A stretch of 64,000 bases of DNA from a virus, in the IMG/VR virus record IMGVR_UViG_3300042937_000216, positions 58,453 through 122,452 of that record. One strand, 5' to 3'. The notes beneath the pieces are model-generated. The model was not told the DNA's origin. It did not search any database and worked only from the letters and a program-made list of their open reading frames with translations. Below, piece by piece: positions 18,990 through 38,787 of the stretch. Both the position numbers and the translations under genes were made by a program. Numbering within the stretch: position 1 is the stretch's first letter; each line of letters begins with the position of its first letter.

Positions 18990-20609
18990 ATGAAAACAGA
19001 CATTCAAATCAATCAATCAGCAGACCTACTACCAATTACAGCCGTTGCCGGTTCTATTAATGTACGAGACGAACAGTTAGAAGTGTATGGTAGTAGGAAA
19101 GCTAAACTAAACATAGAAGCACTTGCTGACCGTCCTGGTCGAGATAGCAAGTTAATCTTAGTAACAGCTATTACTCCGACTCCCGCAGGTGAAGGTAAAA
19201 CTACCACAACTATTGGACTAGCAGATGGCCTACGTAAGTTAAACTACAAGTCAATTGTATGCCTACGTGAACCTGCGCTAGGTCCAGTGTTTGGTATGAA
19301 AGGTGGAGCAACTGGTGGCGGCTATGCGCAAGTAGCACCAATGGAAGACATTAACCTACACTTTACAGGTGACTTCCATGCTGTCGCATCAGCTCATAAC
19401 CTACTAGCTAGCCTCATAGATAATCATTTACATTGGGGTAACAGGCTCAATTTAAACACTAACAACATCACATGGAAACGTGTAAGCGACATGAACGATC
19501 GTGCGTTACGCGACGTTTGTGTAGGTCTGGGAGCCCATAACAGCGTTACACGACAGTCAGGATTTGACATTGTAGTGGCGTCAGAAGTAATGGCTATCCT
19601 ATGTTTGGCCAACGACTTCAAGGACTTAAAAAAGCGTTTAGGTAAGATCACTGTAGGCTACACACAAGACGGTAAGCCTGTTACAGCTAAAGATCTTAAG
19701 GCACATGGTGCTATGGCCGCATTACTAAAAGAAGCCGTTAAACCTAACCTAGTACAGACCTTAGAAGGCACTCCTGCGCTAGTACACGGTGGTCCATTTG
19801 CCAACATAGCACATGGTTGTAACAGTGTTATTGCTACTAAGCTGGCTATGAAGTTAGCTGACTACGTAGTAACTGAAGCAGGCTTTGGTGCTGACTTGGG
19901 TGCTGAGAAGTTTATTAACATTAAGTGTCGTAAAAGCGGTCTTAAACCTGACGTAGTAGTGCTTGTAGCAACAGTTAGAGCCGTTAAACATCAAGGTAAC
20001 TACGACAACCTAGATAAGCATATAGCCAACATTAAGACATGGTATAACCTGCCTTGTGTAGTTGCTATTAATCGTTTTAAAGATGATACTGACCTTGAGA
20101 TTGCGGAATTAATTGAGCACATCAAAGAAACATTTGACATTGAAGCAGTTGAATGTACACACTTTGCTAATGGTGGCGATGGTGCCACAGACCTAGCACA
20201 CGAAGTTGTTATTGCTATTGATCGATCAAAACATCAGATGGCGCTGACCTACGAAGATGATGATACACTGTGCGATAAGATTGAGCAAGTAGCTCGTAAA
20301 ATTTACGGTGCTTACCATATAACTATGGATGCCAAGGTCACTAAACATTTAGAAGAACTACAACGAGATTATGGACATTATCCTGTTTGTATTGCTAAAA
20401 CACAAAGCAGTTTCAGTGATGATCCCGCTAATAAATTAGCCGCAACTGAAGGACATGTCTTAACAGTGCGTGAGTTAAAACTATGTACGGGTGCTGAGTA
20501 TATCGTAGCAGTCTGCGGTAACATTATGACCATGCCAGGCTTACCAGAACGACCAAACGCAGAAAAGATCAGTATCAATTCTAAAGGTGAGATCACAGGA
20601 TTAGATTAA
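18990..20609 (+). CDS. fhs: formate--tetrahydrofolate ligase
   Basis: [65 protein letters not shown]. Confidence 0.97.
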
Positions 20610-20737: not shown

Positions 20738-21862
20738 ATGTTAAGCTATCATCATGTCGAAGACTACTTAGAATACCTAGCAGGATACGATCCCGGTAGT
20801 CAAGCCATGTGGATCACACCCGTGCGTAAAATTAGTCTTGCTCGATATGATGTACAGATTGTAGACAGCATGGCCAATAATACATTATTTGGTTCAGCGT
20901 TAACTGATCGTCAAGGCGAGCTAGTGATCAAACTGATACTTAAATATCGTAGGCAATTTACCAACAACGGTATTGACATTACTCCTGTAGAAAACCCACA
21001 GTTCAGAATGCCAGTGCGTAAAATTGATCGTAGTAGATCAATTTGGATTGAAGACGATATTATCAAACTAAAGTTTCCCTACAATCAAGATTACATACAA
21101 CAGATACGAGAGTTTAAAGACTCAAGTCAAGGATCTGCTCGCTGGGACAATGATAAAAAATTGTGGGCTGTGGCAATTACTGAATACAATGTCAACTGGC
21201 TAGTAAGTTGGGCACAGAGTAATCAATTTGAAGTATCACAAGGCCTGCTGGCGTTAATGGATCAAATACTAAAGGCAGAACAGAAACCATACGAAATCAA
21301 ATTAGTTAAAACAGCAGATGGATACACTGTCACTAATGCTGCTAAGAGCCTATTAGAATATATTAAACGTTATGATAACGACCCGATTAAACTAGTAGAT
21401 GCTTCGGGCGTGTTGTGCTACACAGTTGATGCCGACATATTAGAACAGTGTTCGATTGATTACGGTCCGGCATTAGAATATATCGGCACCAGACACAATG
21501 TACACCTGAGCCCAGTTACTGATGCTGGGTATTGGGATTGGGTACTAGACTATGCTGAACTAACACAGCGTTATCCAATATGCGTATATGACCCAGGCAT
21601 GTCCACAGAATTAGATTTGAGTAGATTTAGTCAAGACGACATTGTTTATTTTGATCATAATGGCAAAACTAAGACTAGCAATTATAACCCATATGGTGTT
21701 AAAGTAGTATATGCTCGTAGAATTCCTAAGTGTTGGGACTTTCCGGTGCCTTTACTTGTCAGCACTGCCGAAATGATGTTTGGCGGCAAACGACTAGAAT
21801 GGTTAAACAAAGCAGAGAAGATAGTGTACCTAACCAACACTATTATAAATGAGAAAAACTAA
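20738..21862 (+). CDS. hypothetical protein with a possible HARP-like domain
   Basis: F.Y....I..I.......RWD...K.W pattern; leaderless promoter TTGCTA-N17-TATACT-N6-ATG; coupled to the helicase. Confidence 0.65.
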   Translation: MLSYHHVEDYLEYLAGYDPGSQAMWITPVRKISLARYDVQIVDSMANNTLFGSALTDRQGELVIKLILKYRRQFTNNGIDITPVENPQFRMPVRKIDRSRSIWIEDDIIKLKFPYNQDYIQQIREFKDSSQGSARWDNDKKLWAVAITEYNVNWLVSWAQSNQFEVSQGLLALMDQILKAEQKPYEIKLVKTADGYTVTNAAKSLLEYIKRYDNDPIKLVDASGVLCYTVDADILEQCSIDYGPALEYIGTRHNVHLSPVTDAGYWDWVLDYAELTQRYPICVYDPGMSTELDLSRFSQDDIVYFDHNGKTKTSNYNPYGVKVVYARRIPKCWDFPVPLLVSTAEMMFGGKRLEWLNKAEKIVYLTNTIINEKN

Positions 21863-23319
21863 TGGCCACAGCTAGACTATTAATTAAAGATGAAGTGAAC
21901 GTAAAGATTGAAGGCTTAGATCTACACGAACGTAAAGAACTCAGTAACAAGTTCAAATATGAAATACCTGGTGCTAGATATTTGCCCGCAGTTCGTTTGG
22001 GTCGTTGGGATGGTAAGGTAGCGTACTTCCAAATGGGCGGTAGCACATACATTAATCTACTCAATGACATTATACCCTATTTAGACAGTCGTGGTTATAA
22101 CATTGAAATTGAAGATGTTAGAGATTATCGTACACAGTTTGATTTCCAACAGGTAACAGAGAGTACATTCGCACACAAGGTATGGCCCGAGAAACACCCA
22201 ATGGTAGGACAGCCTATTACCCTACGTGACTATCAAATTGACATTGTCAATAACTTCTTAACCAATCCACAGTGTATACAAGAAATTGCCACAGGTGCTG
22301 GTAAAACAATCATGACAGCCGCACTAAGTTATAGCTGTGAAGCCTATGGGCGTACAATCGTCATTGTACCAAACAAAAGCCTAGTAACACAAACAGAAGC
22401 AGACTATATTAACCTAGGCCTAGACGTTGGCGTATACTTTGGTGATCGTAAAGAGTTTGGTCGTACACATACTATCTGTACTTGGCAGAGTCTAAACATT
22501 CTATTAAAGAATACCAAAGGTGGTGAAGCAGATGTTACTATCGGTGAGTTCATTGAGGGTGTTGTCTGTGTAATGGTTGACGAAGTACACATGGCCAAAG
22601 CAGATGCGCTTAAGACCTTGCTCACTGGAGTAATGTCACACATACCAATTCGTTGGGGCCTAACTGGTACCATACCCAAAGAGCCATATGAGCAGGTTAG
22701 TCTACTGTGTAGTCTTGGCCCTGTGATAGGTAAACTCAGTGCTAGTGAACTACAAGAACAGGGTGTGTTGGCCAACTGTCATGTGAATATACTACAGTTA
22801 ATTGATCATGTAGAGTACAAGGACTATCAAAGCGAGTTACGCTATCTATTAGAAACAGAAGGTAGACTAGACTACATCGCACAGCTGGTAGAAAGCATAC
22901 GCAAGACAGGCAACACATTGGTATTAGTTGATCGTATAGCACCAGGTAAGGCATTGATTGAAAAGATTAGAGGTGCTGTGTTTGTTTCTGGGGGAACTAA
23001 AGCAGATGATAGAAAAGAAAGCTATGATGAGTTTGCCACAAGTGATGACGTGGTTGCTGTGGCCACTTACGGTGTTGCGGCAGTGGGTATTAATATTCCT
23101 CGTATTTTTAATCTTGTACTTATCGAACCTGGTAAGAGTTTTGTCAGGGTTATTCAAAGCATTGGACGTGGTATTCGTAAAGCAGAAGATAAAGACTTTG
23201 TTCAGATCTGGGACGTAACATCAACATGTAAATTTGCCAAACGGCATATTACAACACGTAAGAAATTTTACAACGAAGCAAACTATCCGTTTGTGGTTGA
23301 AAAGGTAGATTGGCAGTGA
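21862..23319 (+). CDS. uvsW: UvsW-like superfamily 2 DNA helicase
   Basis: WDGK, LRDYQ, ATGAGKT, VDEVH, GLTGT, QSIGRGIRK. Confidence 0.9.
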   Translation: MATARLLIKDEVNVKIEGLDLHERKELSNKFKYEIPGARYLPAVRLGRWDGKVAYFQMGGSTYINLLNDIIPYLDSRGYNIEIEDVRDYRTQFDFQQVTESTFAHKVWPEKHPMVGQPITLRDYQIDIVNNFLTNPQCIQEIATGAGKTIMTAALSYSCEAYGRTIVIVPNKSLVTQTEADYINLGLDVGVYFGDRKEFGRTHTICTWQSLNILLKNTKGGEADVTIGEFIEGVVCVMVDEVHMAKADALKTLLTGVMSHIPIRWGLTGTIPKEPYEQVSLLCSLGPVIGKLSASELQEQGVLANCHVNILQLIDHVEYKDYQSELRYLLETEGRLDYIAQLVESIRKTGNTLVLVDRIAPGKALIEKIRGAVFVSGGTKADDRKESYDEFATSDDVVAVATYGVAAVGINIPRIFNLVLIEPGKSFVRVIQSIGRGIRKAEDKDFVQIWDVTSTCKFAKRHITTRKKFYNEANYPFVVEKVDWQ

Positions 23320-24982: not shown

Positions 24983-25458
24983 TGGCCACAGATTTTAACA
25001 GTCCGCTTTACATAGGTAATGAAATGGCGGCCTTTGATCGTAAGGATCGTAAGTACTATGATAAGTTCACTGATGAAGAACGTAAACAGTTTAGCACGTA
25101 TCTAATGTTGCGCTATGGTGCTAGTGTAGAAGGTAGTAATGATCTACAGGCCTACTATCTAATGGCCACAAATGAACGTGTAAATAAGAACTTCTTTGAT
25201 CTAGGCAAACATCCTAAACTACAGTGGTTACTATGTTCTACAGTTAGTCCCGGCATGGGCAAGCAAAAGCACTACTGGCAGGCTAGTAAAAAGAAAGAAG
25301 GCGGCAATAACAAAGCAGAAAAGTTCCTAGCAGAACTTTATCCAGAACTTAAACAAGATGAAATAGAATTGTTAGCGGCAATCAATGATAAAAGAGATAT
25401 TACAGACCTGGCAAGAAAACACGGGCTCGATGACAAACAAGTCAAGTCCAAGTTATAA
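24982..25458 (+). CDS. putative clamp loader small subunit (T4 gp62-like)
   Basis: F..YL..R..S, N.....F..L..H..LQW and basic W...KKK pattern reminiscent of gp62; replication context. Confidence 0.55.
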   Translation: MATDFNSPLYIGNEMAAFDRKDRKYYDKFTDEERKQFSTYLMLRYGASVEGSNDLQAYYLMATNERVNKNFFDLGKHPKLQWLLCSTVSPGMGKQKHYWQASKKKEGGNNKAEKFLAELYPELKQDEIELLAAINDKRDITDLARKHGLDDKQVKSKL

Positions 25459-26128
25459 GTGTAGATATTGCGATAAAGAGTTTCGTAAAGAATCTACTCT
25501 TTCGGCGCATCTTTGTGAAACTAAACGTCGTTACCAACAGGAAAAAGAAATTGGTGTACAGTTTGGGCTACAGGCATATCTACGATTTTATGAAATGACA
25601 CAGGGTTCAGCTAAACTCAAAGGCTATAAGGAATTTGTAGACAGTCCTTACTACAGTGCCTTTGTTAAGTTTGGTCGTCACATGGTGGCTATACGTGCTG
25701 TGAATCCGCGTATGTTCATTGAGTATGTGATTAAAGAAAATAAGAAACTTGACCATTGGTGTCATGACAAGGTCTATGTAGAATATCTACACACATACCT
25801 TAAGAAAGAAGCAGTTCAAGATGCGATTGAACGTGCCCTAACAGAAATGCAGGAATATACAGATGAGACTAAAATGCTTGCCAGCTTCAATGACTATTTT
25901 AGATATGGCAATGAGAATAGGATTTGCCATCATATTGCCAATGGTCGTGTTAGTCCTTGGATTGTTTTTAATTGTGATAGCGGGGTCGAATTTCTTAGTG
26001 GACTCACTGAAGAACAGATTGCTATCATTCTTCCGTGGATAGACCCGGACTTTTGGCAACGTAGGTTCCAAGACTATCTGGCAGATACAGAGTGGGTTAA
26101 ACAAATTCTTAAAGAGGCAGGCTTATAA
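25430..26128 (+). CDS. Zn-finger-containing hypothetical protein
   Basis: YKCRYCDKEFRKESTLSAHLC (C2H-C finger); ATG 25430 preferred over 25385. Confidence 0.7.
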   Translation: MTNKSSPSYKCRYCDKEFRKESTLSAHLCETKRRYQQEKEIGVQFGLQAYLRFYEMTQGSAKLKGYKEFVDSPYYSAFVKFGRHMVAIRAVNPRMFIEYVIKENKKLDHWCHDKVYVEYLHTYLKKEAVQDAIERALTEMQEYTDETKMLASFNDYFRYGNENRICHHIANGRVSPWIVFNCDSGVEFLSGLTEEQIAIILPWIDPDFWQRRFQDYLADTEWVKQILKEAGL

Positions 26129-26319
26129 TGGAAGAAGTTGTAGCATTATTGAATGAAATCAAGGGCGAGATAATTAGCCTACAAACTGAATTGTTGTTGG
26201 TGAAGTTTGCTATTGAAGAAGTAGAACGCCGTACAGAATATATTTCAGAGAATTTACATCTAGCACAGGACAATGCTCCTATGACAGCTCAAGGAAAGTT
26301 ACGTGTTGAAAAGTTTTAA
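26128..26319 (+). CDS. small coiled-coil hypothetical protein
   Basis: Coupled 63-aa ORF. Confidence 0.55.
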   Translation: MEEVVALLNEIKGEIISLQTELLLVKFAIEEVERRTEYISENLHLAQDNAPMTAQGKLRVEKF

Positions 26320-26893
26320 GTCCGACGTTGACATTGACTTTGCTGATCGTGAGCAGGTATTGGCAGTATTAGATACTACATCGGCTAGTATTATTCGTGA
26401 CGGCAAGTTAACCAAGCATAACACAGGTGTCTATGCTACTGATATACCTACAGATCCGTTTACAGGATTCTCTAGTTTAGATTATAACGATGCTGAAGAG
26501 CGTGGTTATATGAAGTTAGACTTTCTTAATGTAAACTTATATAAACAGGTTAGGGATGAAGCACATCTAGTTGAACTAATGCGTGAACCTGATTGGGCTA
26601 GATTATATGATCCGGCAATATGTCAGCAGTTAATTCACATTAACAATCACTATGATACATTACTTAAAATGCCTGAGCCTGTGGATACTATTCCTAGACT
26701 GGCTATGTTCCTAGCAGTTATTCGTCCAGCTAAAAGACATTTAATTGGTAAGACTTGGCGAGATGTTGCGGCTGATGTGTGGACTAAACCTGCGGATGAT
26801 GGATACTACTTCAAACGTGCCCATGCCGTTTCCTACGCACAACTTGTAGTCGTTAATATGAATTTATTAGTAGAACAACAAACGCAATCATAG
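26303..26893 (+). CDS. miniature DNA polymerase III alpha (C-family) catalytic-core-like protein
   Basis: SDVDIDF, KHNTGVY, GYMKLDFL, LA.IRP, YYFKRAHAVSYA occur in DnaE order within only 196 aa. Confidence 0.8.
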   Translation: MLKSFKSDVDIDFADREQVLAVLDTTSASIIRDGKLTKHNTGVYATDIPTDPFTGFSSLDYNDAEERGYMKLDFLNVNLYKQVRDEAHLVELMREPDWARLYDPAICQQLIHINNHYDTLLKMPEPVDTIPRLAMFLAVIRPAKRHLIGKTWRDVAADVWTKPADDGYYFKRAHAVSYAQLVVVNMNLLVEQQTQS

Positions 26894-26928: not shown

Positions 26929-27549
26929 ATGATAACATATCCAAGAAAGTGTCCTGTATGTGAATACATAGCAAATAATCCTGCTATGTATTCGTACCAT
27001 AAACAAACTCATCAATCTATTCCAGCAGATACCTTATGTCATTTTGGCTGCGGTAATACAGCTACCCATCGAAATACTGGCGGCAAGTATACTTGCAAAT
27101 CAAAATATCAAGAGTGCCCTTCTTATATAGATCAATTAAGTAATCGAACAAAGAAAAGTTGGGAAGGCGCTATTAAAAGAAAAGAAGAAACAAAAAAATG
27201 TTTCTATGAGCATTGTAGCGGAAACGAAATTGCTCGCAAAAAAGCAAAACAGTCTATTAAAGAAAAATGGGGAGATTTTACCCCAGAACAAATGAAAGAT
27301 TTTAGGCAATATGCTAGACGTATTAGAGTTAGAGCACAGCGATGGGCAAAAGCACAAGGATATAGTTTAGGTCAGCGAACATATCATGTTGATCATAAGT
27401 TTAGTATATGGGATTCATGGTTGGCTAGTCTGCCAGAAAGTGTAGTAAATCATCCTGCCAATTTAAGAATTTTAGAAGCGAATGAAAATTCATCTAAAGG
27501 TGCTAAGAGTTTATACACTCTTGAAGAACTATTAATGTTAACTAACTAA
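26929..27549 (+). CDS. HNH endonuclease with Zn-binding N-terminal modules
   Basis: CPVC, CHFGCG, YHVDHKFS...NHPANLRIL...NSSKG; own TAAATA promoter at 26918. Confidence 0.8.
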   Translation: MITYPRKCPVCEYIANNPAMYSYHKQTHQSIPADTLCHFGCGNTATHRNTGGKYTCKSKYQECPSYIDQLSNRTKKSWEGAIKRKEETKKCFYEHCSGNEIARKKAKQSIKEKWGDFTPEQMKDFRQYARRIRVRAQRWAKAQGYSLGQRTYHVDHKFSIWDSWLASLPESVVNHPANLRILEANENSSKGAKSLYTLEELLMLTN

Positions 27550-27920
27550 CCTACTTTGCGAATCAGTGTAATACTACGGCGCTTACTGCGTTTCTGAGCT
27601 ATTTCTTTTAGACTAACGTAAGGGCCGTGCTGTATAAGAACGTCCTTGCTGTTGAATGTTTTTAAACAGGGTCTAAACTCTACCCAATCTAATTTTAGAA
27701 ATACATTGATAGGCACTAGCCTATTACTTTCCCACCACCACTGATCTGCCAGCGACAAAAAACGTTCTTTTTGATCTAGCGTGCGTAGAGCTGAAAAATC
27801 GTAGATTGTAGTGATGATCTCATCTGCGTTTTGTACAATGCCAATGTAGTCATTACCTCCGTAGGTCAGATAGCTAATAAATGGGTATTGGTCTAATAAA
27901 TTCTTGTAACTATCTTCCAT
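27546..27920 (-). CDS. conserved hypothetical phage protein
   Basis: YIGIVQN, WWWESNR..P.N.FL. Confidence 0.75.
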   Translation of the reverse strand: MEDSYKNLLDQYPFISYLTYGGNDYIGIVQNADEIITTIYDFSALRTLDQKERFLSLADQWWWESNRLVPINVFLKLDWVEFRPCLKTFNSKDVLIQHGPYVSLKEIAQKRSKRRSITLIRKVG

Positions 27921-27957: not shown

Positions 27958-28458
27958 GTGCCTGTAATCACAAGTTATTTATATCAGAATATTTTCACTG
28001 TTCAGATTTTGGACTATAACGATCCTGCCATTTCTGACAGAAGGAACAACATCGTGTATCAAAGACCAATCGAAATTTATCGCGGGGCAGATAACCCTAT
28101 TGTTATCAAATTTAAGAACCAAGATCAAAAGACGGCTAATATTGCTGGATTGACATTTAGTGGTTACATTATTGATTATTTGAAAGGCAATGTTGTATCA
28201 AACGTGAGTGTAACGGTTAGTAATGTCAGCACAGCTACAGCAAATTGTATGCTGACTAGTGATTTTATTAACACACTACCGCAGAGCAGATACAAACTTG
28301 CGTTCCTAAAATACAATGGTGTACATGAAACACCTACTTATAGTGATGATAACTATGGCGTCTATGCTGAACTAAGAATTAATCCAGCATTTGAAACAGA
28401 CGCATTTACATCAAGCACTACAGACTACAGTGGCAACGTTGACCTAGGTATAATATAA
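27958..28458 (+). CDS. putative virion structural or adaptor protein
   Basis: TAAATA at 27932; IYRG.DN.I...KN.DQK; precedes the fibre gene. Confidence 0.6.
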   Translation: MPVITSYLYQNIFTVQILDYNDPAISDRRNNIVYQRPIEIYRGADNPIVIKFKNQDQKTANIAGLTFSGYIIDYLKGNVVSNVSVTVSNVSTATANCMLTSDFINTLPQSRYKLAFLKYNGVHETPTYSDDNYGVYAELRINPAFETDAFTSSTTDYSGNVDLGII

Positions 28459-31400
28459 TGCAGGCACCAAGAAGATTACAGTTACGAAGAGGCAACACAG
28501 CGGCAATTAGTACCTACGTTGGTGCCCCTGGTGAATTGATAGTTAATACCGATACTAATACCTTATATCTTCATAACGGAACAACGGTTGGGGGCGTCGC
28601 TACTTCAGTTAATACATCTAGTATTACAACAAATGTTTCGGCGTTACAAGGTAATGTAGCAATATTACAAGGTAATATACTAACTTTACAATCTGGAATT
28701 ACAACCTTAACTAGCAACGCAGCTGTACAATCAGGCATACTAGCAACATTGTTAGCCAATGCCGCAACACAAGCAGGTGACCTAGCAACCTTAACAAGTA
28801 ATGCCGCAAGTCAAGCTGGTGACATAGCAACCATCTACGCAAACTTAGGTGCGGTAAGTGGAAGCATAGCAACATTAACTAGTAATGCCGCAATACAGGC
28901 AGGCCTACTAGATACATTAACAGGTAATGCAGCTAGCCAAGGCGGAGAACTAGCTACCTTAGTAGCTAATGCCGCAACACAAGCGGGTGCGTTGGCTACT
29001 TTAACTAGCAATGCCGCTAGTCAAAGTGGAACACTTGCCGACCTAATAGCCAATGCCGCAGTTCAGGCAGGACTAATTGCTGGTAGTACAGGCACATACG
29101 GTAATGCTAATGTGGCTGCTTACTTGCCAACATATGATGGCAATATTGCGGCTAATATTAGCAAAGCAGGCTACACTTGGACCTTTGGCACAGATGCTGT
29201 CCTAACTTTACCTTCGGGTGGAACTATTTTAGAAAGCGGTTACGGCAGTGCTGGCGCTATAAGATTAAAACCCAATGGTGGTACCAGCACACAGTATCTA
29301 GAAATAGCACCTACTGCGGTAGATGGTAATCATGTTCATCTGATGGCCGGTAGCGGAACAGAACTATTCTTAGGTGACGATAATCACTATGTTAAATTGG
29401 CCAATACTGGCGGTGTGGTAATCAACAGCAATGATGGCGCCGGTAATACTGCCCAGTGGACCTTTGGCACAACTGGTAATTTAACTATCCCGGGCAGTAT
29501 CATTGGTACCAGTCATATAAACATCGACAACCGTGATTCGGGCAACACCGCAGATATCAACTTATATTCAGCCGATGACATCTTGTTACAAGCTCGTGAT
29601 CGTGAAGGAGATTCTGGCTCAGAAGGTGGTGACATCAATATCTATGCTGGGGATAGTGCTGTAGGTAGTGATGCCACTGGCGGCGATGTTCAAATACGTG
29701 GTGGCGACGGCGGCGCGGGTGACAGCTACGATAATGGTGGAGATGGTGGATACGTCACCATACAGAGCGGACAGGGCGGTGCTGCCTCTGGTATTTACTC
29801 TGCACGAAGCGGCGGTGATCTTACACTTCGTGCAGGCGATGCTGGTACAAACAATGGCAATATTAACCTAGGTAATGAGGGTGGTACTGTAATCATCGAA
29901 GCTGGTGACAGCACAGCTAATGGCGTTAATGGTGGCACTATCTATCTAACTTCGGGTGCCGCTGATGCAAGCGCATTGGCAGGTGATGTTGTGATTCAAG
30001 CCGGTGGTACCTGGACTTTTGGCGGGAATGGTAACTTGAACTTGCCACAAGGCGGCACAATTACTGAAGGTGGTGGACTCACTGGTGCTATTCGACTAAC
30101 TCCCTCAGGTGGTGCCAATGATAATCAAGCATTGCTAATTTATCCCACTGCGGCTGCTGATGGTGATCATATACACTTGACCGCAGCAGGCGGTTCAACT
30201 GAATTGTATCTTGGCAATGACCTTCACTATGTCAAGTTAGTTGATGGCGGCAATGTAGAACTACGAGCCTCCACTGCGAATTTGTCTGCTCAGGCGGCTT
30301 GGACATTTGACACTACTGGCAAAATAGATACCATCCAGGCATTGGGGATAAAGGTTCCCAATGGTGTGCCATCTGATGTTGCTGTTATCAACAGCACCAC
30401 CGGCAGTTGGGAAATAAATCCTAGGTCCGACTTGGCCACAACAGGCGGGTCAGGCAGTGGATTGAGAGTAAATGTGACAGAGACTGGTGGATATGCCAGC
30501 ACTATTGCTATTGCTACCGCTGGTACTGGATACAACAACGGTGATCTTATTACAGTCACAAGTGGCACATCCAATGCTACATTCACCATTGTTATTGGAG
30601 GTCGAAACACTTGGACCTTTGGCACAGGTGGTACTACACAATTTCCTAATAGCTTGATACTAGCACCAGTTAGTCAAAGTATCACTATGCAGAGTGATCA
30701 ATATTCACAGTTGATGTGGCAAAACGCTAATGTAACCGTGGCCCCAAATATGGCTACTTACTCAAACTTCTATGTAGCACAAAACAGTGCTACCTTGGAT
30801 ATTGGCTATCTTGACGGTAATAGTAGCCCACAATTCAAAGAGTGGCTCTGGAGTGTAGATGGTAATCTAACATTACCAAGTGGTGGATATATCCTTAACA
30901 GTGATAATTCAATCTACGGTGCCGGTAGCAGTTACAGCAACGTTGATGTAGCAAGTTATCTACCTACATACACGGGCAATATTGGCAACATAGACTTAGT
31001 AGCTAACTTAGGAGCAACTAGTGGCTCATTAGCAACACTAACAGCCAACGCGGCTAGTCAAGCAGGTAACATAGCAACACTGACTGCCAACGCCGGGGCA
31101 CAAGCAGGATCACTAGCAACAATTACGTCAGTGTTGACCAGTTCAAATGTAGCAATTGGAGAAAATGCTGCCTACACTGCGCAGGGGCAATATGCAGTTG
31201 CTATTGGTTTGTATGCGGGTGGTGATACACAAGGAGAACGTGCGGTAGCTATAGGCTCCAATGCTGGTAAAACTGCGCAAGGGGCTTATGCAGTAGCCAT
31301 TGGTAGACGTGCTGGAGAAACCAACCAAGGCAACAACTCTATTATTATTAATGCAACTACTGGGGTATTAAATCAAACCACAGCCAACACATTCACAGTG

Positions 31401-32744
31401 GCTCCGGTTAGAAATGATGTGGCTAATATTAGTCAAATCATGTTTTACAACACCACTAGCAAAGAAGTTACCTACGGAAATATTATTAACATTGCGGGCA
31501 ATGTCTCAGCTAACTATTTTGTAGGTAATGGTGCCCTATTAACTGGTATTGTAGCCAGCGGCAGTAACTATAGTAATGCTAACGTAGCTAGTTACCTACC
31601 AACATATAGTGGTAATGTTGCTAACCTAACAGTTACTAATACGCTAACCCTTACTGCTACTAAAATAGCATTGGGTAGTGGCGCCGGGGCCTTCGGTGGT
31701 CAAGGAACTGATTCGATCGCAATTGGTCGTAGCACAGGTCAAAATATACAGGGCAATAGTGCTGTAGCTGTAGGAGGGTATGCTGGACAAAACAATCAAG
31801 GTGACGATGCAACTGCTATTGGGCAGAACGCTGGATTCAATACACAAAGTCTACAAGCAGTAGCAGTTGGTAGTGGTGCAGGACAAACGTTTCAATCAAT
31901 GGGTGGAGTAGCAGTTGGCTATGCCTCAGGACAAACATCACAAGGACTACGAGCTGTAGCAATTGGTTCTGTTGCTGGTAATGACCACCAAGGCCAACAG
32001 GCTATCGCAATAGGACACCAGGCGGGATATTCATACCAACCTGCTAATAGTATTGAGATCAATGCTTCGGGCACTCCGATCGATTATACTGATCTAACTG
32101 CTGGTTTATATATTACATCAGTCAAAAATGACACAGCCAACGTCACAAACGTGATGTATTATAATACAACTTCAAAAGAAGTTACTTATGGAGCAGCAAG
32201 TGGCAGCTACAGCAACAGTAATGTAGCAAGTTACTTACCAACATACAGTGGTAATATTACAGCAGGTAATGTTATTGCTACACGCTTTATTGGTAATACT
32301 ATTGGTACAACTGCTACATTTACTAGTAATATCACAACATCGGGTACTACTAGTTATTTTGTTGGTAATGCTGGCCCAGCAATTGCTGGCAGTACAGCAT
32401 CAAGCGTTGGTTATATGGGCTTACCACAAAGTGAAACCAGTACCAGTGCCACATTAGCCATTGGTGATGCTGGCAAACATATCTATGTAACAACAAACAG
32501 CCAAACAATAACCATTCCAGCAGCTAGTTCAGTGGCTTACCCAATCGGAACTACTCTTACATTCATAGCAGGACCAAGTGCTACTACTGTTACTATTGCT
32601 ATCACCTCAGACACTATGTACTTGGCAGGTACAGGCACAACTGGTTCACGTACACTAGCCGCACATGGCATGGCCACAGCAGTTAAAGTCAGCGGACTAA
32701 GTTCAGCTGGTGTGTGGTACATTAACGGAAGCGGGTTAACATAA
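28458..32744 (+). CDS. long tail fibre or receptor-binding protein
   Basis: N-terminal LQLRRG...GE...TDT..L..H.G.T.GG; LATLTSNAA.QAG repeats, WTFG modules, Gly-rich G.I.I.AG repeats, YadA-head-like AVAIG repeats. Confidence 0.85.
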   Translation: MQAPRRLQLRRGNTAAISTYVGAPGELIVNTDTNTLYLHNGTTVGGVATSVNTSSITTNVSALQGNVAILQGNILTLQSGITTLTSNAAVQSGILATLLANAATQAGDLATLTSNAASQAGDIATIYANLGAVSGSIATLTSNAAIQAGLLDTLTGNAASQGGELATLVANAATQAGALATLTSNAASQSGTLADLIANAAVQAGLIAGSTGTYGNANVAAYLPTYDGNIAANISKAGYTWTFGTDAVLTLPSGGTILESGYGSAGAIRLKPNGGTSTQYLEIAPTAVDGNHVHLMAGSGTELFLGDDNHYVKLANTGGVVINSNDGAGNTAQWTFGTTGNLTIPGSIIGTSHINIDNRDSGNTADINLYSADDILLQARDREGDSGSEGGDINIYAGDSAVGSDATGGDVQIRGGDGGAGDSYDNGGDGGYVTIQSGQGGAASGIYSARSGGDLTLRAGDAGTNNGNINLGNEGGTVIIEAGDSTANGVNGGTIYLTSGAADASALAGDVVIQAGGTWTFGGNGNLNLPQGGTITEGGGLTGAIRLTPSGGANDNQALLIYPTAAADGDHIHLTAAGGSTELYLGNDLHYVKLVDGGNVELRASTANLSAQAAWTFDTTGKIDTIQALGIKVPNGVPSDVAVINSTTGSWEINPRSDLATTGGSGSGLRVNVTETGGYASTIAIATAGTGYNNGDLITVTSGTSNATFTIVIGGRNTWTFGTGGTTQFPNSLILAPVSQSITMQSDQYSQLMWQNANVTVAPNMATYSNFYVAQNSATLDIGYLDGNSSPQFKEWLWSVDGNLTLPSGGYILNSDNSIYGAGSSYSNVDVASYLPTYTGNIGNIDLVANLGATSGSLATLTANAASQAGNIATLTANAGAQAGSLATITSVLTSSNVAIGENAAYTAQGQYAVAIGLYAGGDTQGERAVAIGSNAGKTAQGAYAVAIGRRAGETNQGNNSIIINATTGVLNQTTANTFTVAPVRNDVANISQIMFYNTTSKEVTYGNIINIAGNVSANYFVGNGALLTGIVASGSNYSNANVASYLPTYSGNVANLTVTNTLTLTATKIALGSGAGAFGGQGTDSIAIGRSTGQNIQGNSAVAVGGYAGQNNQGDDATAIGQNAGFNTQSLQAVAVGSGAGQTFQSMGGVAVGYASGQTSQGLRAVAIGSVAGNDHQGQQAIAIGHQAGYSYQPANSIEINASGTPIDYTDLTAGLYITSVKNDTANVTNVMYYNTTSKEVTYGAASGSYSNSNVASYLPTYSGNITAGNVIATRFIGNTIGTTATFTSNITTSGTTSYFVGNAGPAIAGSTASSVGYMGLPQSETSTSATLAIGDAGKHIYVTTNSQTITIPAASSVAYPIGTTLTFIAGPSATTVTIAITSDTMYLAGTGTTGSRTLAAHGMATAVKVSGLSSAGVWYINGSGLT

Positions 32745-36356: not shown

Positions 36357-37382
36357 ATGCTGAATATCGTCTCTGACTTCATTAAAAGTATTTTACCTGC
36401 TAAACGCAAGACAACCCCTACAGGTTGGACGAGCTTTAATGCTCCCTGCTGTCACCACAACGGTGAAAGTCCTGATACTAGAGGTCGTGGCGGATTAACT
36501 GCTAATGCCGATGGCAGTGTAAGCTATCACTGTTTTAATTGTAATTTTAAGGCAAGTTTCCAACCAGGGCGTCACTTAACATTTAAGTTTCGCAAACTAT
36601 TAAGTTGGTTAGGTGCTAGCGACAATGATGTTAAACGCTTAGTAATAGAAGCCATCCGTATTAGAGAGCTGGTTGCTCCAGAAGAAATTAAAGAACCAGA
36701 AGAAAAGATCGAGTTCAAAGTTCGTGAACTGCCTAAAGATGCTGTGAGTTTCCAACAGATACTTACATATCATTTATTAGATGATTTTGCTAATGTTCCG
36801 GGTCTACTAAATTCAGCAGTTGGCTATGTTAAAGATCGCAACATTGATACAGACAAGTATGATTTTTATTGGACTGACTCAACAGAACACAGTCTACATC
36901 AACGTGTGATCATTCCTATGATCTGGGAAGGTAAGATTATTGGCTATACAAGCCGCGCCTTTGTAGACGGGGTTAAACCCAAGTATTACAGTCATTATGA
37001 ACCTAACTTTGTGTTTAATACCAATAATCAAAAACGTGAAAATAAATTTGTTATTGTCTGTGAAGGTCCGTTTGATGCTATGTCAATAGATGGTGTTGCT
37101 ATTATGAGCAATGAGTGTAGTGAAACACAAGCTGAAATCATTGAGAGTTTGGGCAAAGAAGTCATTGTAGTAGCCGACCGCGACAAGGCAGGTGCTAAGT
37201 TATTACAGAATGCTATGGAATATGGATGGAGTGCTAGCTTTCCTGTATGGCAAGAAACCTGTAAAGATATCAATGAAGCTGTGGTTAAGTATGGTAAACT
37301 GTTTGTGCTTAAGGCTATCTTAGATAGTAAAGAAACGAGCAAACTTAAAATTGAATTGATGAGAAAAAAACTGTATAATTAA
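36357..37382 (+). CDS. DNA primase (T4 gp61 / DnaG-like)
   Basis: Zn ribbon (PCC..., YHCFNC), TOPRIM VCEGPFDA, DRD.AG, KD.NEA; leaderless promoter TTGACC-N17-TATAAT-N6-ATG. Confidence 0.9.
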   Translation: MLNIVSDFIKSILPAKRKTTPTGWTSFNAPCCHHNGESPDTRGRGGLTANADGSVSYHCFNCNFKASFQPGRHLTFKFRKLLSWLGASDNDVKRLVIEAIRIRELVAPEEIKEPEEKIEFKVRELPKDAVSFQQILTYHLLDDFANVPGLLNSAVGYVKDRNIDTDKYDFYWTDSTEHSLHQRVIIPMIWEGKIIGYTSRAFVDGVKPKYYSHYEPNFVFNTNNQKRENKFVIVCEGPFDAMSIDGVAIMSNECSETQAEIIESLGKEVIVVADRDKAGAKLLQNAMEYGWSASFPVWQETCKDINEAVVKYGKLFVLKAILDSKETSKLKIELMRKKLYN

Positions 37383-37386
37383 TAAT

Positions 37387-38787
37387 ATGACAACTGAATA
37401 TACACCAGAACTACAAAAACTATTTTTAGAAATGATGGTACAAGACGCACAATCATTTGTGCGTGTACAGAACATTTATAATCCTGAAAACTTTGATAGA
37501 AGTCTGCGTGAAGCGGCACGGTTTGTTAAAGAACACAGCGAACAGTACAAGACACTCCCAACAATAGATCAAATTGAAGCAGTAACCAAGGTAGTTCTCA
37601 AACACGTGCCAGACCTGACAGAAGACCACTATAATTGGTTTATGACAGAGTTTGAAGGATTTACCAAACGTCAAGAGCTAGAGCGTGCTATTCTAACTGC
37701 GGCAGATATGCTGGAAAAAGGTGACTTTGATCCAGTTGAAAAACTAATTAAAGATGCTGTACAGATTAGTTTGACTAAAGACATGGGTACAGACTACTTT
37801 GAGGATCCTAGACTGCGTATTAACAAATACTTCAACAGTGGCGGCCAGGTAAGTACGGGTTGGCCCAGCATGGATCGTATCTTATACGGTGGTATGAGTC
37901 GCGGTGAACTAAACATCTTTGCTGGTGGTTCTGGTTCGGGTAAGTCTTTGGTTATGATGAATATTGCGCTTAGTTGGTTACAAGCTGGCCTAAGTGGTGT
38001 GTATGTAAGTTTAGAGTTGAGCGAAGAACTTTGCGCACTTAGAACAGATGCGATGTTGACTGACATGAGTACCAAAGATATTCGTAAGGACATAGACACA
38101 ACAGAACTTAAGGTTAAACTTGTTAGCAAGAAAGCTGGGCAATATCGTATTAAAGGATTGCCGGCACAATCAAACGTAAATGATATCCGCAGTTACTTAA
38201 AAGAAGTACAACTACAAACAGGCATCAAAGTTGACTTTGTTATGGTAGATTACTTAGATTTGGTTATGCCTGTATCAGTTAAGGTTAATCCAAACGATCA
38301 GTTTATTAAAGACAAATATGTAGCAGAAGAACTGCGTAATCTAAGTAAAGAACTTAACGTGTTGTTGGTAACAGCGAGTCAGTTGAATCGTAGTGCTGTT
38401 GAAGAAATTGAATTTGACCATAGTCATATCGCCGGTGGTATATCTAAGATCAACACAGCAGATAACGTGTTTGGTATCTTTACTAGCCGTGCTATGAAAG
38501 AACGTGGCAGATATCAACTACAATGTATGAAGTCACGTAGTTCGACTGGTGTAGGACATAAAGTTGATTTAGAATACAACATCGAAACTATGCGTATCAC
38601 TGACCCAGGTGAAGAAGGACAAGAAGGATTCAGACCTCAAAACTCAGGTAGCATATTAAGTCAGATCAAAACAGGTAGTACTGTAACTAAAGACACAGGA
38701 GAAGTAACTGATAGTCCTAAGATTACAGCCTCAGTGGATAGTAGTAAACTTAAAAGTATGTTAGCTGGACTTAAAAAGGTCGACTAG
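37387..38787 (+). CDS. replicative DNA helicase (T4 gp41 / DnaB-like)
   Basis: STGW..MD..LYGG, GGSGSGKS, SLELSE, VDYLDL, TASQLNR. Confidence 0.92.
   Translation: MTTEYTPELQKLFLEMMVQDAQSFVRVQNIYNPENFDRSLREAARFVKEHSEQYKTLPTIDQIEAVTKVVLKHVPDLTEDHYNWFMTEFEGFTKRQELERAILTAADMLEKGDFDPVEKLIKDAVQISLTKDMGTDYFEDPRLRINKYFNSGGQVSTGWPSMDRILYGGMSRGELNIFAGGSGSGKSLVMMNIALSWLQAGLSGVYVSLELSEELCALRTDAMLTDMSTKDIRKDIDTTELKVKLVSKKAGQYRIKGLPAQSNVNDIRSYLKEVQLQTGIKVDFVMVDYLDLVMPVSVKVNPNDQFIKDKYVAEELRNLSKELNVLLVTASQLNRSAVEEIEFDHSHIAGGISKINTADNVFGIFTSRAMKERGRYQLQCMKSRSSTGVGHKVDLEYNIETMRITDPGEEGQEGFRPQNSGSILSQIKTGSTVTKDTGEVTDSPKITASVDSSKLKSMLAGLKKVD

What the first reader, a model, noticed from the sequence alone, without database searches (positions are those of the whole stretch)
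26303..26893. 196-aa miniature C-family (DnaE) polymerase core with the catalytic aspartate motifs intact
Seen: SDVDIDF, KHNTGVY, GYMKLDFL, LAVIRP and FKRAHAVSYA, in the same order as in DnaE. Known: E. coli DnaE is over 1100 aa and uses the Asp residues of PDFDVDF plus KFDFL; HAGG, RPG and FNKSH.AY are its conserved palm and finger motifs. Here PHP, most of the thumb and fingers, HhH and OB are missing, yet the motifs are joined in one clean frame. That looks like streamlining rather than decay. It sits among a gp62-like gene, a Zn-finger protein and UvsW. Inference: a split or multi-subunit minimal polymerase, or a repurposed nucleotidyltransferase for priming, end protection or DNA modification.
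Basis: partly seen in the sequence, partly recalled or inferred. Interest (0 to 1): 0.85.

Follow-up and report, generated by a model that had tools for sequence, protein, structure and literature searches.

The report
Half of a split mini-DnaE polymerase
This 196-residue jumbo-phage gene is the metal- and template-binding half of a tiny two-piece relative of the bacterial replicative DNA polymerase, a curiosity already described by comparative genomics in 2021 but never tested at the bench.

Summary
ORF 26303-26893 (+) encodes 196 aa carrying all five quoted motifs in DnaE order.

It is not a free-standing polymerase core. It is the C-terminal half ("piece B", PHROG phrog_11778, E 2.5e-63) of the split minimal DNA polymerase III alpha of group 2.2 (RaK2/PA5oct/Atu_ph07-like) jumbo phages. 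Iyer et al. described this in 2021 (PMC7824862, passages read).

The N-terminal NTP-binding half ("piece A", phrog_11127) lies 33-224 kb away in complete relatives. It is absent from this 122-kb, 35%-complete record.

- **Homology:** the B profile hits only DnaE structures. The AF2 model (pLDDT 96.7) superposes on DnaE/PolC residues about 395-781 at Z 9.5.
- **Conservation:** the catalytic Asp, Lys and Arg residues are invariant, and dN/dS is about 0.09-0.16.
- **Natural fusions:** three 375-376-aa A+B proteins exist.
- **Assembly:** a complex model of A+B scores 0.92 against a best control of 0.08.
- **Family-B polymerase:** present in 7 of 7 large relatives.

The scan's first readers flagged the same protein on other DNA. 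Verdict: already known and biochemically uncharacterised.

The parts
26303..26893 (+). Piece B: the C-terminal (Mg2+- and template-binding) half of the split minimal DNA Pol III alpha; 196 aa, GTG start.
   Evidence: It matches phrog_11778 at E 2.5e-63 over 4-193. The A1 profile hits DnaE in the PDB at E 7.3e-6. The AF2 model has pLDDT 96.7. VIA gives Z 9.5 to 3e0d 457-841 and Z 8.6 to E. coli 2hnh 395-781.
26291..26298 (+). Shine-Dalgarno-like AAGGAAAG, 4 nt upstream of the GTG start. It lies inside the 3' end of the preceding 63-aa ORF (26128-26319), so the two may be translationally coupled.
   Evidence: Read directly from the sequence.
26321..26341 (+). SDVDIDF, with D8, D10 and D12. It aligns with the DnaE metal-binding D-x-D strand (PDFDIDF in the full-length DnaE of L226).
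   Evidence: The three Asp are >=90% conserved in 85 sequences and invariant in 84 after two outlier rows were dropped. In the complex model, B residues 2-14 touch A residues 131-144.
26414..26434 (+). KHNTGVY, with H39 and G42. It corresponds to the HAAGV motif of DnaE.
   Evidence: H39 and G42 are >=90% conserved. The motif is seen in full-length DnaE.
26504..26527 (+). GYMKLDFL, with K71 and the third catalytic Asp D73. It corresponds to KFDFL of DnaE.
   Evidence: K71 and D73 are invariant in 85 of 85 sequences. HMM and hhalign alignments place it on the DnaE KFDFL motif.
26711..26728 (+). LAVIRP, with R141 and P142. It corresponds to the L(Y/F)RPG finger motif of DnaE.
   Evidence: R141 and P142 are invariant, and K144 is >=90% conserved. 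It aligns to E. coli 636-641.
26810..26839 (+). FKRAHAVSYA, with K171 and H174. It corresponds to FNKSHAAAYA of DnaE.
   Evidence: K171, H174 and A179 are >=90% conserved. It aligns to E. coli 740-768. There are weak hits to the full-length DnaE PHROGs phrog_405 and phrog_11165 at residues 153-190.
21862..23319 (+). Context: a UvsW-type helicase, conserved upstream of piece B in relatives.
   Evidence: Pfam ResIII, Helicase_C and UvsW_N. The same order is seen in Phosso and PAC2.
25385..26128 (+). Context: a C2H2 zinc-finger protein (phrog_11058), the conserved immediate upstream neighbour of piece B.
   Evidence: It is syntenic in PAC2 and in G008, where it overlaps the start of B.
27546..27920 (-). 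Context: a conserved convergent small ORF (phrog_11637) downstream of piece B.
   Evidence: Homologous reverse ORFs follow B in Phosso, PAC2 and G008.
36357..38787 (+). Context: a DNA primase (36357-37382) and a DnaB-like helicase (37387-38787), placed downstream of B as in relatives.
   Evidence: PHROG phrog_47 at E 6.8e-42 and phrog_19 at E 1.6e-70. The same order is seen.

Best explanation
**Identity (about 0.93).** The ORF is piece B, the C-terminal half of the phage-specific, split, minimal DNA polymerase III alpha of group 2.2 (RaK2/PA5oct/Atu_ph07-like, T4-related) jumbo phages.

**How it works.**
- Shown by sequence and models: B supplies the acidic residues D8, D10, D12 and D73. They align with the DnaE metal-binding D-x-D and K-x-D motifs.
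- B also supplies K71, R141, K144, K171 and H174. They align with the DnaE K-F-D, R-P-G and F-N-K-S-H motifs. Their role in binding the incoming dNTP and the template comes from established DnaE structures and is recalled, not tested here.
- B lacks the first part of the Pol-beta-like palm. That part carries the invariant G-R-G-S-S triphosphate-binding loop.

**Composite enzyme (inferred, about 0.85).**
- A separate protein of about 170 aa, piece A (phrog_11127), is encoded tens to hundreds of kb away.
- A docks by pairing its GS-loop strand with the D-x-D strand of B. This rebuilds one composite active site equivalent to E. coli DnaE residues about 279-781.
- The rebuilt core has no PHP domain, no thumb, no long finger insert, no clamp-binding domain and no OB or tau-binding domain.

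**Role (inferred, about 0.5).**
- The A/B heterodimer is a distributive, non-proofreading, template-dependent DNA polymerase.
- It works beside the phage's T4-like family-B replicase in gap filling or in repair and recombination-dependent synthesis.
- This fits its fixed position in the UvsW ... primase/DnaB module.

Piece A of this particular phage was not seen, because the record is a 35%-complete fragment.
For: **Family membership**
- The ORF gives a full-length match to phrog_11778 at E 2.5e-63.
- tblastn finds 96 of 96 matching phage records, all jumbo phages, all covering >=80% of the query at <60% identity.
- 6533 clusters match at E <= 1e-3 among 6588 candidates of 107-343 aa. The best 120 are 187-204 aa long.
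- 415 representatives at 50% clustering match.

**In print**
- Iyer et al. 2021 describe a minimal Pol III alpha in group 2.2 phages.

**DnaE homology of B**
- The A1 profile hits 9 of 9 PDB sequences that are Pol III alpha, best E 7.3e-6.
- hhalign gives E 1.7e-6.
- The AF2 model has pLDDT 96.7 and pTM 0.89.
- Foldseek ranks 1-10 are all Pol III alpha, E 6.2e-3 to 0.13.
- The top 14 VIA rows are all C-family polymerases at Z 9.5-6.1. The next row is Z 3.6.

**Piece A**
- PF07733 positions 21-95 match the C-terminal 75 residues of the A ORFs, and the match ends at the stop codon.
- The A6 profile aligns to E. coli DnaE 322-392.
- The A model (pLDDT 89.8) residues 71/78-170 superpose on E. coli 279-393 at Z 10.1.
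- B starts at E. coli residue 395.

**Fusion evidence**
- P0161, P0271 and P0272 (375-376 aa) carry A at 8-180 and B at 190-374.
- One continuous match to the full-length DnaE PHROG phrog_405 (357-462) runs across the junction.

**Split is the rule**
- In 80 of 80 IMG/VR A loci the ORF stops 0-10 residues after E-F-L-[KRN].

**Conservation**
- K71, D73, R141 and P142 are invariant.
- D8, D10, D12, H39, G42, K144, K171 and H174 are >=90% conserved in 85 sequences.
- In piece A, W135, G136, G138, R139, G140, S141 and S142 are invariant.
- Median dN/dS is 0.158, 0.088 and 0.093 in three dS bands, from 74 CDS.

**Assembly**
- The native G008 pair gives ipSAE 0.92, against a best control of 0.08.
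- That mark was reached by 58 of 80 solved complexes and 2 of 110 mismatched pairs.
- The runs agree in >=96% of contacts, and the partner's pLDDT is >=87.
- B residues 11-13 touch A residues 135-136.
- Because the pair resembles solved single-chain DnaE, this pass may reflect that likeness.

**Context**
- A family-B polymerase is present in 2 of 2 isolates and 5 of 5 large IMG/VR relatives.
- PHP is found in 0 of 5, with the control ringing in 14 of 14 genomes.
- The synteny UvsW ... C2H2 - B - reverse ORF ... primase - DnaB is conserved.
Against: - Piece A and a family-B polymerase were not found in the window's own record. They were also not found in 5 related IMG/VR fragments. All of these are fragments of 10-35% estimated completeness, so the result is inconclusive.
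- Two of 5 large IMG/VR records that carry A have no detectable B: G006 (543 kb) and G010 (359 kb). The window protein, the A1 profile and an exhaustive six-frame hmmsearch all failed, with best E 0.44 and 0.25. A is therefore not always accompanied by B in the DNA held.
- Pfam itself does not recognise B (0 families at E <= 0.1).
- Foldseek found no match at E <= 0.001.
- No biochemical data exist in the papers searched. Polymerase activity, template dependence and the repair role are all inference.
- The enzyme lacks a thumb and any clamp-binding element, which is unusual for a DNA polymerase that must hold a primer-template.
Confidence: 0.8

Rival explanations
1. Piece B is a self-sufficient miniature polymerase: the 196 aa alone form a complete catalytic core.
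For: All three catalytic Asp and the finger motifs lie in this one ORF. The isolated chain folds with pLDDT 96.7.
Against: - B begins exactly at the D-x-D strand, equivalent to E. coli DnaE residue 395.
- B lacks the preceding palm helices and the GS triphosphate loop. Those are invariant in a separate protein.
- Natural fusions join the two halves colinearly with DnaE.
- The N-terminal strand of B is buried against A in the complex model.
Confidence: 0.04
2. Same split protein, but the A/B enzyme is not a templated DNA polymerase. It is a repurposed Pol-beta-fold nucleotidyltransferase, for example one that tails or protects DNA ends, assists priming, or makes a nucleotide signal.
For: - There is no thumb, no clamp-binding domain, no OB domain and no proofreading domain.
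- A full family-B replicase is already present.
- Some genomes keep A without B, which hints at flexible use.
- No activity has been published.
Against: - The residues kept invariant are specifically the DnaE finger motifs (R-P, K-x-x-H), which align to the dNTP/template-contacting region of DnaE.
- The finger helices superpose on DnaE and PolC.
- The genomic position is in the replication and recombination module.
Confidence: 0.15
3. A decaying or non-catalytic remnant of a captured dnaE gene, either a pseudogene fragment or a purely structural protein.
For: - It is half of a gene, far from the other half.
- An earlier genome paper called the A half 'truncated' (PMC5259590, passage).
Against: - dN/dS is about 0.09-0.16, with a maximum of 0.58 among the 1002 pairs whose dS lay between 0.02 and 2.
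- The length is fixed at 186-201 aa in 74 CDS.
- The catalytic residues are invariant.
- The family has thousands of clusters.
Confidence: 0.02

Closest known systems
Split minimal DNA polymerase III alpha of group 2.2 jumbo phages (Iyer, Anantharaman, Krishnan, Burroughs, Aravind 2021, Viruses 13:63; PMC7824862). The two halves are PHROGs phrog_11778 (C-terminal) and phrog_11127 (N-terminal).
   Same: This is the same thing. It is the C-terminal Mg2+- and template-binding half, in a T4-related jumbo phage that has UvsW, a primase and DnaB. The partner half sits at a distant locus in relatives, and a family-B polymerase accompanies it.
   Different: Nothing essential differs. This copy is 41-54% identical to those of cultured phages and 71-83% identical to uncultured ones. 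Its partner half lies outside the fragment held. I did not find either point in the passages I read.
Bacterial DnaE (Pol III alpha; e.g. E. coli PDB 2hnh, T. aquaticus 3e0d) and PolC (3f2b)
   Same: The Pol-beta-like palm carries the same D-x-D and K-x-D carboxylates, and the R-P-G and F-x-K-x-H finger motifs are kept. B superposes over 187-193 residues at Z 8.6-9.5. A superposes at Z 10.1.
   Different: - A+B total about 366 aa, against 1100-1200 aa.
- No PHP domain is present.
- E. coli 395-781 (387 residues) is compressed into 196. HMM alignment shows that about 100 residues between R-P-G (641) and F-N-K-S-H (about 740) are reduced to about 11.
- The region between H-x-x-G and K-x-D, which holds the thumb by recalled domain limits, is reduced to about 25 residues.
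- Nothing exists beyond the equivalent of residue about 781, so there is no clamp-binding, OB or tau-binding domain.
- It is encoded as two genes.
- B does not reach any Pfam threshold.
[quoted passage not shown]
   Same: This is an analogy in how it may work. It is a drastically reduced Pol-beta-fold polymerase in a large DNA virus that already owns a family-B replicase, and it is used for repair rather than bulk replication.
   Different: It belongs to the X family, not the C family. It is a single chain, comes from a eukaryotic virus, and has a demonstrated repair activity. The phage enzyme is untested.

Membership tests
Split minimal Pol III alpha, C-terminal half (phrog_11778; Iyer et al. 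2021) | Full-length similarity to the roughly 197-residue family profile | tested here: met
   E 2.5e-63, protein 4-193 against profile 4-195 of 197.
Split minimal Pol III alpha, C-terminal half (phrog_11778; Iyer et al. 2021) | The protein starts at the metal-binding D-x-D-x-D strand and keeps K-x-D, R-P and K-x-x-H | tested here: met
   D8, D10, D12, K71, D73, R141, P142, K171 and H174 are all present. All are invariant or >=90% conserved in the family. 82 of 84 full-length representatives have D-x-D-x-D within the first 40 residues.
Split minimal Pol III alpha, C-terminal half (phrog_11778; Iyer et al. 2021) | A separate N-terminal NTP-binding half encoded at a distant locus of the same genome | tested here: inconclusive
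   It was not found in the own 122-kb record, either with PF07733 or with the PAC2 A protein. That record is only 35% complete. It was found in Phosso, PAC2, G007, G008 and G009, 37-224 kb from B.
Split minimal Pol III alpha, C-terminal half (phrog_11778; Iyer et al. 2021) | Accompanied by a T4-like family-B DNA polymerase, with no other Pol III alpha domain | tested here: inconclusive
   The own record has no PF00136 match, but it is a fragment. Relatives: PF00136 in 7 of 7 and PHP in 0 of 5.
C-family DNA polymerase catalytic subunit (DnaE/PolC) | Sequence homology of the palm and fingers to DnaE | tested here: met
   The A1 profile hits only Pol III alpha chains, best E 7.3e-6. hhalign gives E 1.7e-6.
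C-family DNA polymerase catalytic subunit (DnaE/PolC) | Structural superposition on the DnaE/PolC palm and fingers | tested here: met
   Z 9.5, rmsd 3.9 over 192 residues (3e0d). Z 9.5, rmsd 3.8 over 193 residues (3f2b). Unrelated rows score <= 3.6.
C-family DNA polymerase catalytic subunit (DnaE/PolC) | Match to Pfam DNA_pol3_alpha (PF07733) above the gathering score | tested here: not met
   Piece B has no Pfam family at E <= 0.1. Piece A of relatives does pass, at 36.9-46.3 bits against a cut-off of 23.9.
C-family DNA polymerase catalytic subunit (DnaE/PolC) | Complete palm in one chain, including the GS triphosphate loop, plus PHP, thumb, clamp-binding and OB domains | tested here: not met
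   B covers only the equivalent of E. coli 395-781, in half as many residues. The GS loop is on piece A. PHP is absent from relatives' genomes.
C-family DNA polymerase catalytic subunit (DnaE/PolC) | Template-directed DNA polymerase activity | not testable with these tools
   No biochemical report was found.

The most novel reading that the evidence does not exclude
The A/B heterodimer, and its natural 375-aa single-chain form, is an active, clamp-independent, thumbless C-family DNA polymerase. It would be by far the smallest known. On this reading it is specialised for recombination-dependent or gap-filling synthesis beside a T4-type replicase. Encoding the two halves in different transcription units would let the phage switch the activity on only when both are made. 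Genomes that keep A without B would then point to a second partner for the NTP-binding half.
Probability: 0.35. Interest if true: 0.7.

Novelty: already known. Interest (0 to 1): 0.3.

Why it matters
If the two-piece enzyme is active, it defines the minimal catalytic unit of the bacterial-type replicative polymerase: about 300 core residues against more than 1100. Iyer et al. proposed it as a model of the ancestral Pol III.

It would also show why T4-like jumbo phages, which are very abundant in metagenomes (6533 clusters), keep a second polymerase.

For this window the practical result is an annotation. The gene is one half of a known split enzyme, not a new stand-alone polymerase. The natural single-chain variants found here offer a convenient construct for a first biochemical test.

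Tried and rejected
**Searches that gave nothing useful**
- Pfam on piece B: no family at E <= 0.1.
- A single-sequence search of B against PDB sequences gave only a chance hit at E 1.
- Foldseek gave no match at E <= 0.001, though its top 10 rows were all DnaE.
- 'Longer' homologues of B by word search: none of 507 candidates scored. The fused forms were found by the exhaustive representative search instead.

**Looking for piece A**
- In the own record: nothing.
- In five related IMG/VR fragments: 0 of 5.
- All are fragments, so this is inconclusive.

**Looking for piece B in G006 and G010**
- The protein search, the profile search and a six-frame hmmsearch with --max all found nothing. This is unexplained.

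**Locus searches**
- The search for related loci with the two-sequence A alignment chose poor patterns and found nothing.
- It was repeated with the conserved C-terminal 60 residues given by DNA reference, which returned 80 loci.
- Fused-form loci were not found in viral contigs.
- The metagenome scan returned only two full-length DnaE genes. The fused forms therefore rest on three protein clusters, not on DNA that I could read.

**Alignment not used**
- A7 (fused forms plus halves) was misaligned. The GS motif of 39 piece-A rows fell at column 507 instead of 173. It was not used for any fold.
- I folded piece A alone instead.

**Rejected or unconfirmed ideas**
- The 'gp62-like' neighbour is not supported.
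- A DnaQ/epsilon-like partner is reported for CBB and Atu_ph07 (passages). There is no PF00929 match in the own record. Relatives were not searched.
- The pseudogene or decay reading is rejected on dN/dS and conservation.

**Rows dropped**
- P0186 and P0263 were left out of A5 because they lack the N-terminal motif.
- 66 of the 150 listed representatives were left out of A1: 64 shorter than 180 aa, one of 233 aa, and the 375-aa fusion.
- 10 of the 83 B loci were dropped from the dN/dS set, because the ORF was cut or no start codon was found.
- 62 distinct A proteins came from the 80 loci. Of these, 52 went into A4 and A6.

**Not seen**
- Supplementary files of papers were not opened. The supplements of Iyer et al. 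may list the accessions of both halves and any fused forms.
- The domain limits of E. coli DnaE (PHP, thumb, clamp-binding, OB) and the roles of its active-site residues are recalled, not taken from a call.
Full report
**1. Observation**

ORF 26303-26893 (+) is open. It is 196 aa long and starts at a GTG. An AAGGAAAG ribosome-binding-like stretch sits at 26291-26298. The closest complete relative (G008) starts its homologue with ATG at the aligned position, giving M-T-I-K-F-K-S-D-I-D-I-D-F.

F-E-R-F-L-N-P-D-R-I-S-M-P-D-F-D-I-D-F ... H-A-A-G-V ... K-F-D-F-L ... Y-R-P-G-P ...

The 'gp62-like' gene does not.

**2. What family it belongs to**

Pfam is silent on the protein. It does match PHROG phrog_11778 ('DNA polymerase', 197 positions) end to end at E 2.5e-63. 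Residues 153-190 give weak hits to full-length DnaE PHROGs.

- tblastn against 50,697 phage records finds it in 96, all jumbo phages. These include RaK2, K64-1, 121Q/PBECO4-like coliphages, PA5oct, Atu_ph07, Phosso and XacN1-like phages.
- All 96 cover >=80% of the query at <60% identity.
- In metagenomes the family is very large. There are 6533 clusters at E <= 1e-3 among 6588 candidates of 107-343 aa, and the best 120 are 187-204 aa at 75-99% identity.
- At 50% clustering there are 415 representatives.
- Of the 150 representatives listed, 84 are 180-225 aa, 64 are shorter than 180 aa, one is 233 aa and one is 375 aa.

**3. It is only half of the enzyme**

The own record is a 122-kb fragment that CheckV estimates at 35% complete. 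It has no PF07733 or PF00136 match.

Two complete relatives, Phosso and PAC2, each carry three things:
- a family-B polymerase;
- their copy of this protein, "piece B";
- a second small 'DnaE-like' ORF of 169-177 aa at a distant locus, "piece A". Its last 75 residues match PF07733 positions 21-95, and the match ends at the stop codon.

Piece A is phrog_11127.

The join falls at one point in DnaE:
- The A profile aligns to E. coli DnaE 322-392.
- The A model (pLDDT 89.8) residues 71/78-170 superpose on E. coli 279-393 at Z 10.1, rmsd 2.8 over 92 residues. All 16 listed rows are C-family polymerases.
- The B model starts at E. coli residue 395.
- The break therefore lies between ...F-E-R-F-L and the D-x-D strand.

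It separates the invariant G-R-G-S-S loop (piece A: W135, G136, G138, R139, G140, S141, S142) from the metal-binding aspartates (piece B).

**4. Independent proof that the halves belong together**

Three protein clusters from metagenomes are natural fusions: P0161, P0271 and P0272 (375-376 aa, 78-100% identical to each other, from two sources).
- Residues 6-179 of P0161 align to the whole Phosso piece A at E 2e-24.
- Residues 190-371 align to the window protein.
- PHROG scanning gives phrog_11127 at 8-180 and phrog_11778 at 190-374.
- A single match to the full-length DnaE PHROG phrog_405 (357-462) runs across the junction.
- A linker of about 10 residues joins the two halves.

I could not read the DNA of these fusions.

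The split form is the rule. In 80 of 80 IMG/VR loci holding piece A, the ORF stops 0-10 residues after E-F-L-[KRN] and is 154-205 aa long.

The two genes are 33 kb apart in RaK2, 43 kb in PA5oct, 182 kb in Atu_ph07, 224 kb in Phosso, 119 kb in G008 and 37 kb in G009. These distances were computed. In the window's record only 37.7 kb lie downstream of B. The absence of A there is therefore uninformative.

**5. Structure and conservation of piece B**

AF2 with an 85-row alignment gives pLDDT 96.7 and pTM 0.89.
- Foldseek ranks 1-10 are all Pol III alpha, but with E only 6.2e-3 to 0.13.
- VIA-align gives Z 9.5 (rmsd 3.9, 192 residues) to T. aquaticus Pol III 457-841.
- It gives Z 9.5 to PolC 966-1299 and Z 8.6 to E. 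coli 395-781.
- All 14 top rows are C-family polymerases. The next row drops to Z 3.6.

So 387 residues of E. coli DnaE are condensed into 196. The HMM alignment shows that the roughly 100 residues between R-P-G (641) and F-N-K-S-H (about 740) are reduced to about 11. Nothing exists beyond the equivalent of residue about 781.

Conservation across 85 sequences:
- Invariant: K71, D73, R141 and P142.
- At least 90% conserved: D8, D10, D12, H39, G42, K144, K171 and H174.

The three N-terminal Asp become invariant once two outlier rows are dropped.

Pairwise Nei-Gojobori dN/dS was computed over 74 coding sequences, the window plus 73 of 83 loci.
- Median 0.158 for 34 pairs with dS 0.02-0.3.
- Median 0.088 for 104 pairs with dS 0.3-1.
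- Median 0.093 for 864 pairs with dS 1-2.
- The maximum among these pairs is 0.58.

This is strong purifying selection on an intact active site. It is not decay.

**6. Assembly**

I modelled the native pair from G008, a 329-kb record with direct terminal repeats whose B is 71% identical to the window's.
- ipSAE is 0.92 against a best control of 0.08.
- That mark was reached by 58 of 80 solved complexes and 2 of 110 mismatched pairs. My own alignments were used, so these counts hold only roughly.
- The runs agree in >=96% of contacts, and the partner's pLDDT is >=87.
- B residues 2-14 touch A residues 131-144.

The two chains are halves of a domain that has been solved as one chain in DnaE. The pass may therefore come from that likeness. 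It shows that the halves are compatible, not that they bind.

**7. Already in print**

Iyer, Anantharaman, Krishnan, Burroughs and Aravind (Viruses 2021, PMC7824862; passages read) describe exactly this.
[quoted passage not shown] - They suggest it co-operates with the family-B enzyme in synthesis of one strand or in repair.

Earlier genome papers noted a 'truncated' or predicted Pol III alpha (PMC5259590 and PMC6102473; passages). I found no later or experimental work. A 2026 review of jumbo phages has no occurrence of the terms searched. GenBank annotators already label both halves 'DnaE-like DNA polymerase III alpha' in Phosso. First readers of this scan flagged the same protein in several other genomes.

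**8. Mechanism and role**

Shown:
- homology of both halves to DnaE;
- a composite active site divided between two genes;
- conservation of the catalytic residues;
- a conserved position between UvsW and primase/DnaB;
- co-occurrence with a family-B polymerase in 7 of 7 large relatives;
- absence of PHP in 0 of 5 relatives, with the control ringing in 14 of 14 genomes.

Inferred:
- A and B assemble by strand pairing into a minimal Pol-beta-fold polymerase.
- It has no thumb, clamp-binding or proofreading module, so it would be distributive. That suits gap filling or recombination-dependent synthesis rather than bulk replication.
- I put this role at about 0.5.
- The main rival, at about 0.15, is a non-templated nucleotidyltransferase activity.

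**9. Results against, and loose ends**

- Two of 5 large IMG/VR records that carry A also carry a family-B polymerase but have no detectable B: G006 (543 kb) and G010 (359 kb). An exhaustive six-frame hmmsearch found none. Either B lies outside the DNA held, or A can do without it.
- The own record shows neither A nor a family-B polymerase.
- No biochemistry exists.

**10. Verdict**

The system is already known from comparative genomics. This copy is an ordinary member of it.

Interest is modest (0.3) because the surprise was published in 2021. The open question is whether the enzyme is active and what it is for.

Noticed in passing
window 18990-20609 (+): A full-length formate-tetrahydrofolate ligase gene (539 aa; Pfam FTHFS, E 3.3e-235, covering profile positions 1-555 of 556) sits in the phage fragment, two genes upstream of UvsW. 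It looks like an auxiliary one-carbon/folate metabolism gene. It had no PHROG hit at E <= 1e-5.
   Followed up: no
G006 (L221) and G010 (L183), IMG/VR records of 543 kb and 359 kb: Both encode piece A (E 8e-61 and 1.2e-56) and a family-B polymerase. Neither has a detectable piece B, even by six-frame hmmsearch with --max, where the best E was 0.44 and 0.25.
   Followed up: partly
proteins P0161, P0271, P0272 (metagenome clusters; DNA not readable here): These are natural single-chain A+B mini-DnaE proteins of 375-376 aa. The closest relatives of their B halves (51-59% identity) are ordinary split B proteins of 206-222 aa. I did not determine whether the fusion is ancestral or secondary.
   Followed up: partly
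window 26128-26319 (+): A 63-aa coiled-coil-like ORF is inserted between the C2H2 gene and piece B and overlaps the start of B by 17 nt. In G008 the C2H2 gene abuts B directly with an ATGA overlap and no such ORF.
   Followed up: no
window 26929-27549 (+): A 206-aa Cys/His-rich ORF lies directly downstream of B. Only its C-terminal 50 residues match a PHROG of unknown function (phrog_23051), and it has no Pfam hit. At the same position G008 has an unrelated 229-aa ORF on the opposite strand. This looks like a variable slot, possibly for a homing-endonuclease-like gene.
   Followed up: no
window 28458-32744 (+): A 1428-aa ORF carries many tandem copies of a T-L-T-S-N-A-A-x-Q-A-G-x-L-A-like unit and repeated Y-S-N-x-N-V-A-S-Y-L-P-T-Y-S-G-N segments. 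It is probably a fibre or other virion structural protein. It splits the replication module between piece B and the primase/DnaB genes.
   Followed up: no
PAC2 record (W02) 202949-206726: The family-B polymerase match is spread over two open frames of 825 and 379 aa. G006 and G007 show the same pattern. The family-B polymerase of some of these phages may therefore also be split or interrupted.
   Followed up: no
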